Virus record (IMG/VR): IMGVR_UViG_2778260996_000004
Origin: a virus
Lineage: Duplodnaviria > Heunggongvirae > Uroviricota > Caudoviricetes
DNA: 21,068 bases
Direction: 5' to 3' (one strand)
Under the pieces are notes generated by a model, which had not been told where the DNA came from, ran no database searches, and saw only the letters and a program-made list of their open reading frames with translations. The translations under genes and the position numbers were made by a program. Shown here in pieces: positions 1-5,110 of the stretch (the first letter of the stretch is position 1; each line of letters opens with the position of its first letter).

Positions 1-55
1 GCACCACCCCGTCAGTAGCTGAACAGGAGGGACAGCTGATAGAAACAGAAGCCAC
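1..55 (-). CDS. insA: IS1 InsA, N-terminal fragment (truncated by window edge)
   Basis: Minus-strand translation from GTG (revcomp of 53-55) gives VASVSISCPSCSATDGVV, matching the InsA N-terminus as I recall it. Confidence 0.7.
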   Translation of the reverse strand, partial: MASVSISCPSCSATDGVV

Positions 56-110
56 TGGAGCACCTCAAAAACACCATCATACACTAAATCAGTAAGTTGG
101 CAGCATCACC
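1..110 (-). mobile_element. IS1 insertion sequence, left end (about 110 bp of a 768-bp element; remainder lies upstream of the window)
   Basis: Minus-strand reading of 1-110 is GGTGATGCTGCCAACTTACTGATTTAGTGTATGATGG...CTGACGGGGTGGTGC, which I recognise from memory as the IS1 left terminal inverted repeat plus insA leader (the same segment survives in Tn9/pACYC-type vectors). IR terminus at 110. No search run. Confidence 0.85.
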
Positions 111-121
111 GGGAGGTTATT

Positions 122-739
122 ATGGATAAAAATGTAGAGCATGTATTAGTTGATGCAATTGAAAATAAGCAATCTTTAACAGTCGTTTACTTAGGAGGGA
201 GCCAGCCCGGAACATTAAGGAATATTTCTCCGATTAGTATAAATGGGGATAAGTTGCGGGCAAGATGCCATAGTTCTGGAGCAGTAAAGGTTTTCAATCT
301 TGGGAAAATACAGTTACCCAGTGACTCCTGCGCGGTATCTATGCATTATGGAGATTTAGAAGTTAAAGCTTATGAGACGATGCAGAGCGTAAATGACAAC
401 TTTCATGCCCTTTATCCTGAAGGACGATGGGGTGTTGATTTTAATGAGCATCGCTTTGCTTTATTTGATTTTTTTAAAAACGGGAAACGAAAAAAAACGG
501 CATTTATGGCAATTGAGTTCAGGGAAAGAGATGAAGAGAAAATAATAACAGGTGTAACAATTGATATTGGTATATCTGGAACAGTGATTTCTGAGAAATC
601 CCGAATCCCAAAAAGACGACCATGGGTAGTGGTTGGTCCCGAACACGGAGAATACAGTACTTATTCAACTTTGGACAAGGCTGCTACAGCGTTTTTTGAG
701 AGGCTTTCGTTGATAGCATCCGGCCTGGAAGATAATTGA
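122..739 (+). CDS. hypothetical protein, 205 aa, AT-rich orphan/cargo gene; possible N-terminal SH3-like (WYL-like) beta-barrel; function unknown
   Basis: Intact ORF with GGGAGG (111-116) 5 nt before ATG 122; followed by an intrinsic terminator; composition visibly more AT-rich than the rest of the window (my rough estimate about 40% GC against more than 50% elsewhere). No family recognised. Confidence 0.75.
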   Translation: MDKNVEHVLVDAIENKQSLTVVYLGGSQPGTLRNISPISINGDKLRARCHSSGAVKVFNLGKIQLPSDSCAVSMHYGDLEVKAYETMQSVNDNFHALYPEGRWGVDFNEHRFALFDFFKNGKRKKTAFMAIEFRERDEEKIITGVTIDIGISGTVISEKSRIPKRRPWVVVGPEHGEYSTYSTLDKAATAFFERLSLIASGLEDN

Positions 740-868
740 TTTTATGTTTGGTATTCAGAGTTCGCCGTGCTTAAGAAAGTCAAGATTCTAAAAATACTGA
801 ATGAGCTACTTGTGTTATAACAAAAATGCTATTAGTGTGTTAAGAGTGGTTACTTCGCCACACAACTT

Positions 869-893
869 AAACCCGCCACTGAGCGGGTTTTTT
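869..893 (+). terminator. rho-independent terminator downstream of the 205-aa gene
   Basis: AAA-CCCGC-cactga-GCGGG-TTTTTT: 5-bp GC stem (872-876/883-887), 6-nt loop, T6 tract, A-tract on the 5' side. Confidence 0.6.
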
Positions 894-1015
894 GTACCTG
901 TAAACTTGGTGCAGTACAGTAAACACGCTGGTGGTCGTGAATACTGACTTTTTATCTTGCTGGCTTTTTAGACAAGAGTTATTGGTATGTCATGTTAACC
1001 AGAAGGGAAAAAGAC

Positions 1016-1219
1016 ATGCTAAAACAGCAAGATATGACAGAAACCGCCGCCGCAGTCCTTCATTTCTTACCTGCTGACAAGTGGGTAACGCCACGCATGA
1101 TGACGAGAACTACCGGAGTAAGCGAAGCCCGGTGCCAGTTAATACTGACTCAGTTAGTTCTGGCGGGGCTGGCGAAGGATAACGGCGGGTACGGGAATAA
1201 ATTCAGACGCTGCCAGTAA
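1016..1219 (+). CDS. small winged-helix-like DNA-binding protein (about 67 aa; ORF opens at 992)
   Basis: ORF 992-1219; internal ATG 1016 is preceded by AGAAGGGA. Segment TRTTGVSEARCQLILTQLVLAGLAK has the look of an HTH recognition helix. Short ORF, no family assignment. Confidence 0.45.
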   Translation: MLKQQDMTETAAAVLHFLPADKWVTPRMMTRTTGVSEARCQLILTQLVLAGLAKDNGGYGNKFRRCQ

Positions 1220-1369
1220 TGGCGGTTTCCTGCTGTGAAAATGGGCGGCTGGTGGGTGTTGGTAGCACCTGCCAGCCATTCGCTCATGCTTACTGGTCAC
1301 AAGCGAACCACGGCCCACTGCTTTAGCGCAAAAGCAGAGTGAGCCTACCAGAGTTACGCTTACTGATCC

Positions 1370-2422
1370 ATGAAAAATACTGTAAAAATAAACAGTGTTG
1401 ATTTAATCAACGCTGATTGCCTGCATTTTATTCAGTCCCTGCCTGATGATTCCATTGACCTGATTGTTACCGATCCGCCGTACTTCAAGGTGAAACCCAA
1501 CGGTTGGGACAATCAGTGGAAAGGGGACGAAGATTACCTTAAGTGGCTGGACCACTGTCTGGCCCAGTTCTGGCGGGTGTTAAAACCTGCCGGAAGCCTT
1601 TATCTGTTCTGTGGGCATCGCCTGGCATCTGATATTGAGATCATGATGCGTGAACGTTTCAACGTGCTTAACCATATCATCTGGGCGAAGCCGTCCGGAC
1701 GTTGGAATGGGTGTAATAAAGAAAGTCTGCGCGCATATTTTCCTGCCACAGAGCGCGTTCTGTTTGCTGAACATTACCAGGGGCCATATCGCGGCAAAAG
1801 TGACGGCTATGCAGCAAAAGAAAGGGAACTCAAACAGCACATAATGGCACCGCTGATATCGTATTTCAGGGATGCTCGTGCCGAACTGGGTATAACGGCA
1901 AAACAAATTGCCGAAGCCACAGGTAAGAAAAATATGGTTTCCCACTGGTTTGGTGCCAGTCAGTGGCAGTTGCCGAATGAGGCTGACTATCGGAAGTTAC
2001 AGGCACTGTTTTCCCGTATAGCGGCAGAGAAGTTTCAGGAACAACAACTGGAACAACCACACCACCAGCTGGTGGCATCTTATGATTCACTGAATCGCAA
2101 ATATTCTGAATTGCTGGATGAGTTTAAATCTCTCCGGCGCTATTTCTCCGTATCAGTCTCCGTGCCTTATACCGATGTCTGGACGCATAAACCCGTTCAG
2201 TTCTACCCGGGTAAACATCCGTGCGAGAAACCGGCGGATATGCTCCGGCAAATAATCAATGCCAGTAGTCGCCCTGGTGATCTGGTTGCTGATTTCTTTA
2301 TGGGATCCGGTTCCACAATAAAAGCAGCAATGGCGCTGGGGCGTCGGGCGTTAGGTGTTGAACTTGAGTCAGAGCGGTTTAATCAGACGGTGAAAGAGGT
2401 AAGTGAACTGGTGGGGAAATAA
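1370..2422 (+). CDS. DNA methyltransferase, beta-class amino-MTase (N6-adenine or N4-cytosine), phage orphan type
   Basis: DPPY motif IV near the N-terminus (LIVTDPPYF) and FxGxG motif I near the C-terminus (DFFMGSGST), the beta-class motif order; 350 aa. Confidence 0.9.
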   Translation: MKNTVKINSVDLINADCLHFIQSLPDDSIDLIVTDPPYFKVKPNGWDNQWKGDEDYLKWLDHCLAQFWRVLKPAGSLYLFCGHRLASDIEIMMRERFNVLNHIIWAKPSGRWNGCNKESLRAYFPATERVLFAEHYQGPYRGKSDGYAAKERELKQHIMAPLISYFRDARAELGITAKQIAEATGKKNMVSHWFGASQWQLPNEADYRKLQALFSRIAAEKFQEQQLEQPHHQLVASYDSLNRKYSELLDEFKSLRRYFSVSVSVPYTDVWTHKPVQFYPGKHPCEKPADMLRQIINASSRPGDLVADFFMGSGSTIKAAMALGRRALGVELESERFNQTVKEVSELVGK

Positions 2423-2429
2423 TTCTGGT

Positions 2430-2455
2430 GGCCACGTTGCGTGGCCTTTTTATTT
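2430..2455 (+). terminator. intrinsic terminator-like hairpin after the methyltransferase
   Basis: GGCCACG-ttg-CGTGGCC (7-bp perfect stem) followed by TTTTTATTT, 8 nt after the MTase stop. Confidence 0.5.
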
Positions 2456-2498
2456 CCAACACAGCACCCGCAAATATCGCGAGGTGAGAGATGACGAA

Positions 2499-2834
2499 AT
2501 GCCTCATAACCCAAATACCTGGCCGGACTGGCTGGAGTTGTTTCAGAGCTGGTGGCGTGGAGACACGCCGCTGGGTGCAGTGATTATGTCGATCGTTATG
2601 GCTGGTTTGCGCATCGCCTATTTTGGCGGTGGTGGTGGCTGGAAGCGAAAAACGCTCGAGATTTTGCTCTGTGGCGCTCTGACGCTGACCTTTGCATCCG
2701 CTCTTGAGTATGTCGGATGGCCTAAATCACTTTCTGTTGCCATTGGTGGCGGTGTGGGGCTGATCGGTGTCGATGCTATTCGTGGGGCTGCAATGCGAGT
2801 AATCGGTAACAAGTTTGGTGGCTCTAAGGAGTAA
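2499..2834 (+). CDS. putative holin, class I topology (three hydrophobic segments), 111 aa
   Basis: Sits directly upstream of the endolysin gene; three hydrophobic/Gly-rich segments and a charged C-terminal tail; GAGGTG upstream of ATG 2499. The ORF track extends it to GTG 2403, but that extension contains the terminator hairpin. Not lambda-S-like in sequence. Confidence 0.6.
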   Translation: MPHNPNTWPDWLELFQSWWRGDTPLGAVIMSIVMAGLRIAYFGGGGGWKRKTLEILLCGALTLTFASALEYVGWPKSLSVAIGGGVGLIGVDAIRGAAMRVIGNKFGGSKE

Positions 2835-2837
2835 TTT

Positions 2838-3314
2838 ATGCAGGTACTAAATTCCCAGCGTAAAGCTTTCCTCGATATGTTGGCGTGGTCAGAAGGAACG
2901 GATAACGGGCGACAGCCAACCCGCAATCACGGCTACGACGTTATTGTAGGTGGTGAGTTATTCACGGATTACTCCGATCATCCTCGCAAACTTGTCACGC
3001 TAAACCCCAAACTCAAATCAACAGCCGCCGGACGTTACCAGCTTCTTTCACGCTGGTGGGATGCTTACCGTAAACAGCTTGGCCTGAAAGATTTTTCTCC
3101 AGAAAGCCAGGACGCTGTAGCTCTGCAGCAGATTAAAGAGCGTGGCGCTTTACCGATGATTGATCGCGGTGATATTCGTCAGGCTATCGACCGTTGCAGC
3201 AATATCTGGGCTTCACTACCGGGCGCTGGTTATGGTCAGTTCGAGCATAAAGTTGACAGCCTGATTGCAAAATTCAAAGAAGCAGGCGGAACGGTCAGAG
3301 AGATTGAGGTATGA
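2838..3314 (+). CDS. R: endolysin, lambda R-type lytic transglycosylase
   Basis: 158 aa, near-identical to lambda R as I recall it ([22 protein letters not shown]...GTVREI.V); AAGGAG RBS at 2826-2831. Confidence 0.95.
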
Positions 3315-3778
3315 GCAGAGTAACCGCGATTATCTCCGCTCTGGTTATTTGTATCATCGCCTGCCTGTCATGGGCTGTTAATCATTACCGTGATAACGCC
3401 ATCGCCTACAAAGAACAGCGTGATAAAAAAGTCAGTGAGCTGAAGCAGGCGACCGCCACCATCGCTGACATGCAGCAGCGTCAGCGTGATGTTGCTGCGA
3501 TCGATGCAAAATACACGAAGGAGTTAGCCGATGCGAAAACTGAAAATGAAACTCTGCGCGCTGATGTTGCCGCTGGTCGTAAGCGCCTGCGGGTCAATGC
3601 CAGTTGCTCCGCAGCCGTGCGTGAAGCCACCGGACCCACCAGCATGGATAATGCAACCAGCCCCCGACTGGCAGACACCGCTGAACGGGATTATTTCACC
3701 CTCAGAGAACGGTTGATGACGATGCAGAAGCAACTGGAAGGGGCGCAGGAATATATCCGCACCCAGCGCATTAAGTAG
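3311..3778 (+). CDS. Rz: i-spanin Rz
   Basis: 155 aa, strongly lambda-Rz-like ([16 protein letters not shown]...); start overlaps the R stop (GTATGA). Confidence 0.9.
3531..3716 (+). CDS. Rz1: o-spanin Rz1 (lipoprotein), embedded in Rz in the +1 frame
   Basis: 61 aa; signal peptide with lipobox-like LVVSAC, proline-rich mature part ([30 protein letters not shown]) matching lambda Rz1; AAGGAG RBS at 3517-3522. Confidence 0.85.
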
Positions 3779-4162
3779 ATGGAGAAAAAACACGAATCTG
3801 TGGTTTTTACTGAGCGCGGTGTACACGGTGGAACATATGGCGGGAAGTTTGTTGCTTATGATTATGCAGCATGGCTAAACCCCGGATTTAAATATGCAGC
3901 CTATAAAGTCCTGGATGACTACTTCACCGGAGAACTTCAGCATCGCAACAGCTTAAGTGCGCAGCTCAATATGAAGTGTCATGAGTTTGATCAGAAAAAA
4001 GATATGGCGAGCTTCTGTGGACAAGGGCTGGCGGCATGGCGCTATACGAAGCCAGTGTTGGTCGCTGAGATTAACTCCCTGGCTAACCAGCTGCAGATAA
4101 CGATCCCCGGGCTGTCCGGTATTTGCCGGTATGAAATTACCGGAAGGCGCGGTCGTTACTGA
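3779..4162 (+). CDS. hypothetical protein, 127 aa, possible KilA-N/APSES-type DNA-binding domain
   Basis: ATG 3779 immediately follows the Rz stop (TAGATG). Motif GTYGGKFVAYDYAAWLNPGFKYAAYKVL resembles the KilA-N pattern from memory; no SD evident. Confidence 0.45.
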   Translation: MEKKHESVVFTERGVHGGTYGGKFVAYDYAAWLNPGFKYAAYKVLDDYFTGELQHRNSLSAQLNMKCHEFDQKKDMASFCGQGLAAWRYTKPVLVAEINSLANQLQITIPGLSGICRYEITGRRGRY

Positions 4163-4419
4163 GTAACAGCAGGCATTACAGCAGCCCTTCACTGAGGGGC
4201 TGCGATAATGTGAGGAATAAAAAACCGGCAGGGGAAATCCATTGAAGATTTGCCGGTGGCAAAAGATGGCCATGCTTTTAACCTTAGTAGCAGAGTTACG
4301 GAGTTCAACAACGACCGTCGCCGTTATCTTGCTGAAAGGCGTTTCAATGATTTTCATCAATTTATTCATCAGCAATGGTGATAATCACTCTCATTTTGGC
4401 GGGTCCTTCCGGTGGGGTG

Positions 4420-4450
4420 GCCTGCCACGGGGCGGGAGCGGCGCGGAAAA
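4420..4450. other. candidate cohesive-end site (cosN-like), with the AT-rich region 4450-4615 as candidate cosB/IHF region
   Basis: ACGGGGCGGGAGCGGCGCGG (4427-4446) shares the ACGGGGCGG core with lambda cosN as I recall it; lies about 170 bp upstream of the terminase small-subunit start and is followed by a strongly AT-rich stretch. Confidence 0.35.
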
Positions 4451-4615
4451 AGGCTAGTTTTTGAAATTTCATTCGTCATCACCACTACTGTAATGCATTG
4501 ATATTGCATTAGTTTTATTTTTATGGTGTCGATTTTGATTGTTTTTTGTTCATCACTAACACCGTTTGCCTAAAGTTGTTCGCAAGATGCATGTTTAAAA
4601 CATTCTGGAGCGGGT

Positions 4616-5110
4616 ATGGATCAAGAGTTAAAAAATCTGACGCTGAATATCAGTCAACTGGCGGCACTGTCAGGTGTACATCGCCAGACTGCTGCGGCAA
4701 GGCTGCAAAATCTACCCGTTGCAGGGGGGCATGAAAGCAACCTCAAGCTTTATCGGGTGGTTGATATTGTGTCGGCATTTCTGGCATTACCACCGCCGGT
4801 TGCAGAAGGCGAAATGGACGCGCATGAGCGCAAAGCCTGGTATCAGTCTGAACGTGAGCGTCTTAAGTTCGAACAGGAAACGGCACAACTCATTCCGGCC
4901 AGTGATGTCAGACGGGAGTTTGCCATCTGGGCAAAAGCGGTCGTGCAGGTACTGGAGACATTACCGGATATTCTGGAACGTGACTGCGGTCTGCAGCCTG
5001 CCGCTGTGAGCCGTGTTCAGTCCATTATTGATGATCTGCGCGATCAGATAGCCCTGCGGGTGACCGAAGCAGGTGCGGATGATGAGGAGGAATTACAGCA
5101 GGAGGAGTAA
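4616..5110 (+). CDS. terminase small subunit
   Basis: 164 aa; position immediately upstream of and overlapping the large terminase (TAATG); N-terminal HTH-like segment (LTLNISQLAALSGVHRQTAAARL); acidic C-terminus. Confidence 0.7.
   Translation: MDQELKNLTLNISQLAALSGVHRQTAAARLQNLPVAGGHESNLKLYRVVDIVSAFLALPPPVAEGEMDAHERKAWYQSERERLKFEQETAQLIPASDVRREFAIWAKAVVQVLETLPDILERDCGLQPAAVSRVQSIIDDLRDQIALRVTEAGADDEEELQQEE

What the first reader, a model, noticed from the sequence alone, without database searches (positions are those of the whole stretch)
992..2455. Small winged-helix ORF paired with an orphan beta-class DNA methyltransferase
A methyltransferase with DPPY near the N-terminus and FxGxG near the C-terminus (beta-class order) has no cognate restriction gene in the window and is bracketed by terminators at 869-893 and 2430-2455. 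Directly upstream is a roughly 67-aa ORF with a convincing HTH recognition helix. Together they could be a phage anti-restriction methylase with a small controller, or a methylation-sensitive regulatory pair. With the 205-aa gene this forms a three-gene accessory block between IS1 and the holin. The MTase start has no visible SD, so translation may depend on upstream context.
Basis: partly seen in the sequence, partly recalled or inferred. Interest (0 to 1): 0.55.

Follow-up and report, generated by a model that had tools for sequence, protein, structure and literature searches.

The report
Phage hypermethylase with structured RNA leader
The gene pair is real: a prophage copy of the known "methylate every adenine" enzyme family (M.EcoGII) sits behind a small conserved winged-helix protein. 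The new observation is a conserved, folded 150-base RNA leader between them that probably keeps this toxic enzyme switched off until the phage's late stage.

Summary
Window 1016-1219 encodes a 67-aa winged-helix (wH) protein under purifying selection. Window 1370-2422 encodes an intact beta-class N6-adenine MTase, flanked by intrinsic terminators at 869-893 and 2430-2455. The window holds no restriction gene.

The MTase is not an unknown orphan. [quoted passage not shown] It lies in the late operon, after the Q/tR' region and before the lysis genes.

The wH gene is a frequent partner: 31 of 51 MTase clusters, including a remote homologue clade. It is lost in some relatives and has no known function.

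The unexpected part is the ~150-nt spacer, which is more conserved than the wH gene. It folds into covarying helices and matches no Rfam family. It occurs once per locus, always abutting the MTase start, or a Com-like zinc-ribbon ORF in some relatives. It can pair with the SD-less start region.

Best reading: a late-expressed anti-restriction hypermethylase, locked by terminators and a structured leader. The wH role is unresolved; a regulatory role is plausible but not shown. The 205-aa gene is a separate, variable moron.

The parts
1..110 (-). End of an IS1 copy. It is inserted 11 nt upstream of the ATG of the 205-aa gene, between the Q/pR' region and the late genes.
   Evidence: 110/110 match to the IS1 terminus as I recalled it. 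The window aligns to E. coli E189 only from base 111 onward, and E189 has Q directly upstream instead.
122..739 (+). 205-aa ORF of unknown function. It is a variable moron and not part of the MTase module.
   Evidence: phrog_8498, unknown function. Weak WYL hit below threshold, E = 0.0085. Replaced by other genes or absent in SfV, Ayreon and L004-L007.
869..893 (+). Intrinsic terminator (stem 869-876/883-890 plus T-run). It corresponds to the terminator that follows Q/pR' (tR'-type) in relatives.
   Evidence: Read from the sequence. Annotated as a terminator in SfV and Ayreon. In L008 the equivalent position carries an isrJ match directly after Q.
956..995 (+). Conserved, unstructured sequence block upstream of the wH gene: CTTGCTG-N16-(C)AGAGTTAY-TGTRTGTCA. 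Its role is unknown.
   Evidence: Invariant columns in 18-21 species-level loci. RNAalifold finds no consensus structure. No sigma-70-type match.
1016..1219 (+). Small winged-helix protein, 67 aa, allele A. Invariant MLKQQDMTETA N-terminus and RCQLILTQL in helix 3.
1209..1226 (+). Hairpin T0 (1209-1214 / 1221-1226) with the wH stop codon in its loop, followed by a U-rich tract. In other clades the same position holds a full intrinsic terminator.
   Evidence: All 6 pairs show changes on both sides, 91% of cells paired. 5 of 6 pairs do so on the plain MAFFT alignment. Group-2 loci have GGCGG-TTTTTTT terminators here.
1228..1369 (+). Structured RNA leader of the MTase. Helices: P0 1234-1238/1297-1301; P1a 1241-1246/1282-1287; P1b 1247-1258/1266-1277; P3 1312-1324/1331-1345. 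The alternative start-proximal helix P5 is 1295-1305/1357-1368.
   Evidence: Covariance model R1 finds it once per locus, on the + strand only, abutting the MTase or Com-like ORF start: 72/90 and 57/72 sources. Covariation; P5. Energies. No Rfam family. No conserved uORF.
1370..2422 (+). Beta-class N6-adenine DNA methyltransferase of the M.EcoGII family (350 aa), with no SD.
   Evidence: Pfam N6_N4_Mtase 1.3e-42. 283/349 identical to M.EcoGII. phrog_67; PADLOC MTase_II. The identical protein is found on more than 1000 contigs.
2430..2455 (+). Intrinsic terminator between the MTase and the holin gene.
   Evidence: Scan: stem 2430-2446 with 7 pairs, then TTTTTATTTC. Annotated in SfV and Ayreon.
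2499..2834 (+). Lambda-family holin S, the first lysis gene. It marks the downstream border of the module.
   Evidence: Pfam Phage_holin_3_1 5.9e-27. E189 annotation.

Best explanation
The module is the DNA-hypermethylation cassette of a lambdoid prophage.

[quoted passage not shown] It lies in the late operon, downstream of Q/pR'/tR' and upstream of the lysis genes. It would therefore be transcribed only when Q-modified RNA polymerase reads through the terminators at 869-893 and at T0. Late in infection it would methylate progeny phage DNA and so blunt adenine-sensitive restriction in the next host.

The enzyme is toxic, so expression is locked at several levels. There are terminators on both sides, there is no Shine-Dalgarno sequence, and there is a conserved ~140-nt structured leader. 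A switch segment of the leader (GGUCAC-AAGCG, 1295-1305) can pair in two ways: with the 5' strand UGUGA (P0), or with CGCUU-AC-UGAUC directly in front of the AUG (P5).

The small winged-helix protein is an ancient but dispensable accessory of this cassette. Its most likely role is modulation of the cassette's expression or use, but no direct evidence assigns it a target.

Shown here: the identity of the parts, synteny, coding selection on the wH gene, RNA covariation, and the specificity of the leader for this gene.

Inferred: non-specific activity of this particular enzyme, Q-dependent timing, translational gating by the leader, and any role of the wH protein.
For: - MTase family: 81% identity over the full length to M.EcoGII. 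A 95%-identical M.EcoGII-type gene (L022) carries the same wH and leader upstream.
- Literature: M.EcoGII and M.EcoGI are non-specific, prophage-borne, not expressed in the lysogen and deleterious when expressed (PMC5778455). [quoted passage not shown]
- Position: the order Q - terminator - [wH] - leader - MTase - terminator - S/R/Rz holds across three Q families. isrJ, which I take to be the short pR' transcript, lies just upstream in L008.
- Leader structure on the model-fitted alignment: 91.2% of cells paired against 77.8% shuffled; 32 of 41 pairs change on both sides; score 0.367 against 0.151, 0/500 shuffles reach it; slid controls reach at most 0.093.
- Leader structure on a plain MAFFT alignment: 89.9% paired against at most 49.8% slid; 14 pairs with double changes against 5.3.
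- Specificity: one hit per locus, + strand only, always abutting the MTase or Com-like ORF start, in 1.27 Mb searched.
- Start-proximal helix P5: covariation score 0.216 against 0.153 shuffled, 0/500; slid at most 0.109. The window's minimum-energy fold (-58.8 kcal/mol) contains P5. Mean probability unpaired for -15..-1 is 0.33. The P0-enforced fold is -54.1.
- wH gene: real, conserved and syntenic. Remote homologues occupy the same slot in another clade (hhalign probability 95%, E = 3e-8).
- Precedent for the logic: Com-like zinc-ribbon ORFs sit between leader and MTase in some relatives. Com activates mom translation in Mu (PMC6483171). Com homologues precede alpha-class non-specific adenine MTases in Mu-like prophages (PMC3299994).
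Against: - No expression, methylation or binding data exist for this locus. Activity is inferred from 81% identity, and the target-recognition region is the most diverged part.
- In this window an IS1 copy separates Q/pR' from the late genes, so this particular copy may be poorly expressed or the prophage defective.
- P5 has only moderate support, and its register differs between clades. P0 has no double changes on the unfitted alignment.
- The invariant leader motifs (AAUGGGCG, GGCCCA, GAGCCUA) are unexplained by any helix I could test.
- The leader's invariants persist where the wH gene is absent, so the wH protein is unlikely to be what constrains them.
- wH net charge, by my residue count, is +4 (allele A), -1 (allele B) and about -3 (remote clade). 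That is atypical for a nucleic-acid binder.
Confidence: 0.6

Rival explanations
1. The small wH protein is a C-protein-like transcriptional controller. It binds DNA operators near its own gene or the MTase gene and times MTase transcription.
For: Winged-helix fold with generic transcription-factor matches (TrmBL2, IclR, ArsR, MarR). Invariant polar residues in helix 3 (R39, Q41, T45, Q46). A conserved DNA block lies upstream of its gene, and ACCAGAGTTA is repeated 14 nt before the MTase ATG in the E. coli type. In group-2 loci the palindrome type after the wH gene tracks the wH subtype.
Against: There is no restriction gene to coordinate with. No sigma-70-like promoter lies between the wH gene and the MTase in the window. 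The spacer is filled by RNA structure that covaries as RNA. The second ACCAGAGTTA copy is absent in the Proteus and Plesiomonas types. Allele B and the remote clade are acidic, and helix-3 residues are not kept there. The MTase and leader persist without the wH gene. Pfam HTH-type hits are all below threshold.
Confidence: 0.2
2. The leader is an autoregulatory operator for the MTase itself. The enzyme, which in the M.EcoGII family also binds and methylates RNA, binds its own 5' leader and represses its own translation, capping the dose of a toxic protein. The wH protein is irrelevant to this loop.
For: The MTase is the only protein that always accompanies the leader, across Q types and with or without the wH or Com-like genes. 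M.EcoGII acts on single-stranded RNA and DNA (PMC5778455 abstract). The invariant single-stranded motifs are not explained by pairing.
Against: No data. In Com-type loci the leader precedes the Com-like ORF, not the MTase directly. About 9 of 51 MTase clusters lack a detectable leader.
Confidence: 0.25
3. The wH protein works with the product of the MTase rather than on its expression. It could read or shield heavily m6A-modified or structurally altered DNA, for example against m6A-dependent type IV nucleases. Alternatively it could bind and modulate the MTase.
Against: By my inspection the Zalpha signature residues (Asn/Tyr in helix 3, Trp in the wing) are not present. The match may only reflect the size of a minimal wH. 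Two alleles ~50% identical sit in front of 99%-identical MTases, which is not what tight protein-protein co-evolution predicts. The wH gene is dispensable in several lineages.
Confidence: 0.2
4. The spacer is conserved for a non-RNA reason: a hidden small ORF or a DNA-level site. The apparent structure is incidental.
For: An invariant AUG lies inside AAUGGGCG, and ORFs of 7-36 codons start there. The helix pairing UGGGC with GCCCA never varies, so it says nothing either way.
Against: uORF length, frame and peptide are not conserved, and 1-nt indels are common. P1b is rebuilt from entirely different sequences in Proteus, group-2, L168 and L141 while keeping pairing. 32 of 41 pairs change on both sides.
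Confidence: 0.05

Closest known systems
M.EcoGII / M.EcoGI (E. coli O104:H4 C227-11 prophages; Murray et al. 2018, PMC5778455)
   Same: Beta-class motif order, 349-350 aa, 81% identity. Prophage-borne orphan. Lambdoid late-region context. A 95%-identical relative (L022) has the same wH and leader upstream.
   Different: 19% sequence divergence, concentrated in the central target-recognition region. Activity of this allele is untested. The upstream wH gene and structured leader are not mentioned in the sections of that paper that I read.
Phage Mu com-mom operon (Com zinc-finger translational activator; PMC6483171) and Com plus alpha-class non-specific adenine MTases of Mu-like prophages (Drozdz et al. 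2012, PMC3299994)
   Same: A toxic, late, anti-restriction adenine-modifying enzyme that is silent in lysogens. A small upstream-encoded protein. mRNA structure at the start of the modification gene. In some relatives of this MTase (L155, L157, L159, L166, L175, L179) a Com-like CxxC...CxxC ORF sits immediately upstream of the MTase.
   Different: The window has no Com. Its small protein is a winged helix without a zinc ribbon, lies upstream of the leader, and is separated from the MTase by 150 nt. The RNA is larger (about 140 nt with several helices). The enzyme is a beta-class MTase, not Mom or an alpha-class MTase.
Controller (C) proteins of restriction-modification systems
   Same: A small helix-turn-helix-type protein encoded just upstream of a modification-related gene.
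   Different: No restriction gene. Winged-helix rather than Xre-type HTH. No C-box-like operator pair identified. The spacer is an RNA structure, not a promoter.
Zalpha domains (ADAR1, PKZ, poxvirus E3L) and minimal winged-helix regulators (TrmB/MarR/ArsR/IclR DNA-binding domains; SelB mRNA-binding wH)
   Different: 10-24% identity. The Zalpha signature residues are not evident. Pfam MarR_2 and TrmB hits are far below threshold (E = 0.058 and 0.17). NCBIfam gives no hit, although some RefSeq records label allele B 'TrmB family'.

Membership tests
M.EcoGII-type beta-class non-specific N6-adenine MTase | Beta-class order: motif IV (DPPY) N-terminal, central target-recognition domain, motif I (FxGxG) C-terminal | tested here: met
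   DPPY at residues 35-38 and FMGSG near residue 310. Pfam N6_N4_Mtase spans 29-341, E = 1.3e-42.
M.EcoGII-type beta-class non-specific N6-adenine MTase | Full-length close sequence similarity to M.EcoGII | tested here: met
   283/349 identical (81%), 91% positives, against the sequence in PMC11551740 Suppl. Table S1, which was read by machine and has minor noise.
M.EcoGII-type beta-class non-specific N6-adenine MTase | Methylates adenine in any sequence context | not testable with these tools
   Needs SMRT/nanopore sequencing or LC-MS of DNA from cells expressing this allele.
M.EcoGII-type beta-class non-specific N6-adenine MTase | Prophage-borne, orphan, not expressed in the lysogen | tested here: inconclusive
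   Prophage late-region location and absence of a restriction gene are met. Expression state cannot be tested here.
R-M controller (C) protein | Small Xre-type HTH protein that controls a linked restriction gene through C-box operators | tested here: not met
   No restriction gene in 21 kb. The fold is a winged helix. PADLOC gives no hit. No operator-like inverted repeat found upstream.
Mu Com-type translational activator | Zinc-ribbon protein of about 40-60 aa with CxxC...CxxC, encoded immediately upstream of the modification gene | tested here: not met
   The window's small protein has only two Cys and a wH fold. Com-like ORFs do occur in relatives (Pfam Zn_ribbon_Com E = 0.0016, below threshold).
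Mu com-mom-type translational control (mechanism) | mRNA secondary structure that occludes the translation start of the modification gene | tested here: inconclusive
   Helix P5 (1295-1305/1357-1368) is in the minimum-energy fold and has moderate covariation. The AUG itself is predicted mostly unpaired (0.79).
Zalpha (Z-DNA/Z-RNA binding) domain | wH fold plus conserved Asn/Tyr in helix 3 and Trp in the wing | tested here: not met
Any Rfam 15 RNA family (for the leader) | Covariance-model match at or near the gathering score | tested here: not met
   No hit in 1205-1390 at E <= 10 on the + strand, at E <= 1 over 1-5000, or at E <= 0.1 in nine related loci.
Intrinsic (Rho-independent) terminators flanking the pair | GC-rich hairpin followed by a T-run | tested here: met
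   2430-2455 found by the scan. 869-893 seen by eye and annotated in SfV and Ayreon.

The most novel reading that the evidence does not exclude
The ~140-nt leader is a previously undescribed class of cis-regulatory RNA that gates translation of non-specific m6A methyltransferases in phages of Enterobacterales. It would be a true two-state switch (P0 against the start-proximal P5). A trans-acting factor would flip it by recognising its invariant single-stranded motifs. That factor could be the winged-helix protein, the MTase itself as feedback, or a small ligand such as SAM/SAH.
Probability: 0.3. Interest if true: 0.75.

Novelty: new variant of a known kind. Interest (0 to 1): 0.6.

Why it matters
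- M.EcoGII is a widely used chromatin-footprinting enzyme and a textbook example of a toxic, lysogen-silent phage function. How its expression is held off and released has not been described in anything I could find.
- The cassette (wH, leader and MTase) is very common. One variant matches 1711 and another 2337 of 5426 complete E. coli genomes, with up to 8 copies per genome.
- A conserved structured leader gives a concrete, testable handle on that control. It extends the Mu com-mom logic to lambdoid phages, using different parts.
- It would also add an RNA family to the catalogue.
- It flags phrog_331, the small wH protein, as a candidate partner worth testing.

Tried and rejected
1. Three-gene block including the 205-aa ORF: rejected. 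That ORF lies before the tR'-type terminator and is replaced or absent in relatives.
2. wH as a substitute for antiterminator Q in the remote clade: rejected. That clade has a sigma-70-like promoter plus terminator in front of the leader. However, a Q gene (Pfam 6e-43) lies 6 kb upstream.
3. wH and Com-like ORFs as alternatives: rejected. L155 carries a wH-like ORF (motif-level similarity by eye; below the HMM threshold), the leader, a Com-like ORF and the MTase together.
4. Conserved uORF or termination-reinitiation at the UGA in CUGAUC: rejected. No ORF of conserved frame or length exists.
5. Alternative helices P2 and P4: weak or moderate support only. The long-range UGGGC:GCCCA pairing never varies and is therefore uninformative.
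6. RNAalifold on the diverse MAFFT alignment A3 failed because the variable helices misalign. This was solved with a covariance model.
7. Promoter or RNA structure in the conserved block upstream of the wH gene: no sigma-70 match and no consensus structure. The 10-nt inverted repeat 953-962/1025-1034 around the wH ribosome-binding site shows no clear covariation.
8. Literature searches for SfV orf47/orf48 and for lambdoid late-region methylases found nothing on the small ORF or the leader.
9. Known-family labels for the wH protein: Pfam below threshold; NCBIfam and PADLOC none; PHROG 'unknown function'.
Full report
**1. What is in the window**

The window is the late region of a lambdoid prophage of E. 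coli.

- Bases 1-110 are the end of an IS1 copy, 110/110 to the IS1 terminus as I recalled it.
- From base 111 the window is collinear with E. coli E189 at 98-99% identity. There the order is Q, a 205-aa gene, the small ORF, the MTase, then holin, endolysin and Rz, followed by terminase, portal and head genes.
- The remaining large ORFs of the window are lambda-type tail genes. The window therefore holds no restriction gene.
The MTase is 1370-2422 (350 aa), with DPPY at residues 35-38, FMGSG near residue 310 and Pfam N6_N4_Mtase E = 1.3e-42.
- The terminator at 2430-2455 was found by the scan. The one at 869-893 is visible in the sequence and is annotated in phages SfV and Ayreon.
- The small ORF's conserved start is ATG 1016 (67 aa), with an AAGGG Shine-Dalgarno. 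ATG 992 is not conserved.
- No SD precedes ATG 1370.

**2. The MTase is a member of a characterised family**

- The same DNA occurs in phages SfV (orf47/orf48), mEp460, cdtI, Ayreon and Stx2c phages. It matches 1711 of 5426 complete E. coli genomes.
- The protein is 81% identical (283/349) to M.EcoGII. I took that sequence from Suppl. Table S1 of PMC11551740.
- Murray et al. 2018 (PMC5778455) showed that M.EcoGII and M.EcoGI methylate adenine in any context. They are prophage-borne, not expressed in the lysogen and harmful when expressed. The authors proposed that they protect phage DNA from restriction. A 2025 review groups M.EcoGII with Mu Mom in this respect.
- A locus whose MTase is 95% identical to M.EcoGII (L022) has the same upstream organisation. 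That variant matches 2337 of 5426 E. coli genomes, with up to 8 places per genome.
- Non-specific activity of the window's allele is an inference from this similarity.

**3. Position in the late operon**

- In SfV, Ayreon, E189, L004-L008 and wH-less loci the order is Q - terminator - [variable moron] - [wH] - leader - MTase - terminator - S R Rz. This holds behind three different Q families.
- In L008 an isrJ match, which I take to be the short pR' transcript, lies directly between Q and the small ORF.
- The terminator at 869-893 therefore corresponds to the tR'-type terminator, and the pair lies downstream of it. From established lambda biology, such genes are expressed only when Q-modified polymerase reads through. 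This fits the reported silence in lysogens, but it is inferred rather than shown.
- The 205-aa gene lies upstream of that terminator. It is replaced by unrelated genes or absent in relatives, so it is not part of the module.

**4. The small ORF is a real, conserved winged-helix gene**

- Homologues are confined to Enterobacterales and fall in PHROG 331, 'unknown function'. NCBIfam and PADLOC give nothing. Pfam MarR_2 and TrmB hits are far below threshold.
- Across 22 species-level loci pN/pS is 0.37. In helix 3 it is 0.10, with pS = 0.66. The motif RCQLILTQL is invariant even where the MTase is only 58-62% identical.
- Two alleles, A (67 aa) and B (63-65 aa), are about 50% identical yet sit in front of 99%-identical MTases.
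- A clade with 77-97-aa ORFs in the same slot is remotely homologous (hhalign probability 95%, E = 3e-8).

**5. Synteny and its limits**

- 21 of 23 species-level loci found with small-protein patterns have the MTase start 340-354 nt downstream of the small ORF start.
- 78 of 80 viral contigs found with the MTase have the small ORF.
- Over 51 MTase clusters (90% identity) with at least 600 nt of upstream sequence, I tallied from the per-cluster table: a wH gene of either type in 31, the leader in 42, and a Com-like ORF in 3. The sample mixes MTase-seeded and wH-seeded loci.
- In L117, L162, L171 and L234 the order is Q - terminator - leader - MTase, without the wH gene. In L101 a recombination removed all but its last 46 nt. 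The wH gene is therefore frequent but dispensable.

**6. The spacer is a structured RNA**

- The gap between the small ORF stop and the MTase ATG is 142-152 nt in all type-1 loci. It is more conserved than the small ORF itself.
- A covariance model built from 22 sequences (R1) finds one copy per locus, on the + strand only, ending at the MTase start. It hit 72 of 90 sources, and 57 of 72 sources carrying 10-kb flanks (1.27 Mb, both strands), with no hit elsewhere.
- Helices in window coordinates:
  - T0: 1209-1214/1221-1226, with the stop codon in the loop.
  - P0: 1234-1238/1297-1301.
  - P1a: 1241-1246/1282-1287.
  - P1b: 1247-1258/1266-1277.
  - P3: 1312-1324/1331-1345.
- On the model-fitted alignment 91.2% of cells pair (77.8% shuffled). 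32 of 41 pairs change on both sides. The covariation score is 0.367 against 0.151 (0/500 shuffles) and at most 0.093 when partners are slid.
- On a plain MAFFT alignment 89.9% pair (at most 49.8% slid). 14 pairs have double changes against 5.3 expected.
- P1b is rebuilt from unrelated sequences in Proteus, group-2, L168 and L141.
- No Rfam family matches. No uORF is conserved.

**7. A possible switch**

- The segment GGUCAC-AAGCG (1295-1305) can pair with UGUGA (P0), or with CGCUU-AC-UGAUC (1357-1368), which abuts the AUG (P5).
- Without fitting, P5 scores 0.216 against 0.153 shuffled (0/500) and at most 0.109 slid. Its register differs by clade: GGA:UCC, GGGC:GCCC, CAUGG:CCAUG.
- The window's minimum-energy fold (-58.8 kcal/mol) contains P5. 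The P0-enforced fold is -54.1. Positions -15..-1 are mostly paired (mean probability unpaired 0.33), while the AUG is largely open.
- This supports a leader that restrains initiation at an SD-less start, but only moderately.
- The invariant motifs AAUGGGCG, GGCCCA and GAGCCUA remain unexplained.

**8. Relatives with Com**

- In L155, L157, L159, L166 and L175 a 38-41-aa CxxC...CxxC ORF lies between the leader and the MTase. Its best Pfam hit is Zn_ribbon_Com (E = 0.0016, below threshold). L179 has a Com-like ORF but no detectable leader.
- Com is the translational activator of mom in Mu (PMC6483171). Com homologues precede alpha-class non-specific adenine MTases in Mu-like prophages (PMC3299994).
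- L155 also has a wH-like ORF upstream, judged by motif similarity only. The wH and Com-like genes are therefore not alternatives.

**9. Verdict**

- The pair is real and the anti-restriction reading is well supported by homology.
- The 'controller' role of the wH protein is plausible but unsupported by anything specific, and there is some evidence against it.
- The main addition is an undescribed structured leader tied to this MTase family.

Noticed in passing
window 1-121: An IS1 end abuts the ribosome-binding site of the 205-aa gene. Relative to E. coli E189, IS1 is inserted 11 nt before that ATG. It cuts the late genes, including the MTase and the lysis cassette, off from Q/pR'. This prophage copy may be defective or depend on read-through of IS1.
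   Followed up: partly
window 122-739: The 205-aa ORF (phrog_8498, unknown function; weak sub-threshold WYL hit) lies between Q and the tR'-type terminator in E189. A gene in that position would be transcribed from the constitutive late promoter in a lysogen. It is a candidate lysogenic-conversion or defence moron.
   Followed up: partly
window 956-995 and 1347-1356: The conserved block CTTGCTG-N16-(C)AGAGTTAY-TGTRTGTCA upstream of the small ORF has no consensus RNA structure and no sigma-70 match. Its core, ACAAGAGTTA in the window (ACCAGAGTTA in most relatives), recurs as ACCAGAGTTA 14 nt before the MTase ATG in E. coli-type loci only.
   Followed up: partly
window 953-962 and 1025-1034: A perfect 10-nt inverted repeat (TATCTTGCTG / CAGCAAGATA) brackets the SD and start codon of the small ORF. 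Both arms are nearly invariant in Enterobacteriaceae, which may explain the nucleotide-level invariance of codons 4-7. No clear compensatory changes were seen.
   Followed up: partly
L155 2365-2490, L157 2362-2487 (also L159, L166, L175, L179): Com-like zinc-ribbon ORFs of 38-42 aa lie immediately upstream of beta-class M.EcoGII-family MTases. Except in L179 they lie downstream of the leader. This is a com-mom-like arrangement in a different enzyme class.
   Followed up: partly
L120 2241-2365 (group-2 loci L119-L156): After the remote wH homologue comes a covarying palindrome (TTGGGACC-ACG-GGTCCCAA, or GTGCGACC...GGTCGCAC). Next is a sigma-70-like promoter (TTGCAA-17-TATCAT) with a -10-like TATAAC about 20 nt downstream. 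An intrinsic terminator follows, directly before the leader. The layout resembles pR'-tR', although Q lies 6 kb upstream.
   Followed up: partly
L008 3847-3917 and 5501-5703; L022 5374-6031: Rfam isrJ lies directly after Q and before the small ORF. STnc100 copies and tRNAs lie between the MTase and the lysis genes in related prophages.
   Followed up: no
window 861-997, minus strand: Weak full-length Rfam match to the Salmonella sRNA STnc130 (30 bits against a gathering score of 55, E = 0.13). It lies antisense to the terminator and the region upstream of the small ORF.
   Followed up: no
window 1381-1395: A short hairpin just inside the MTase ORF (ACUG-N8-CAGU, codons 4-9) is predicted in all five clade representatives folded. 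It could be coding-driven.
   Followed up: no
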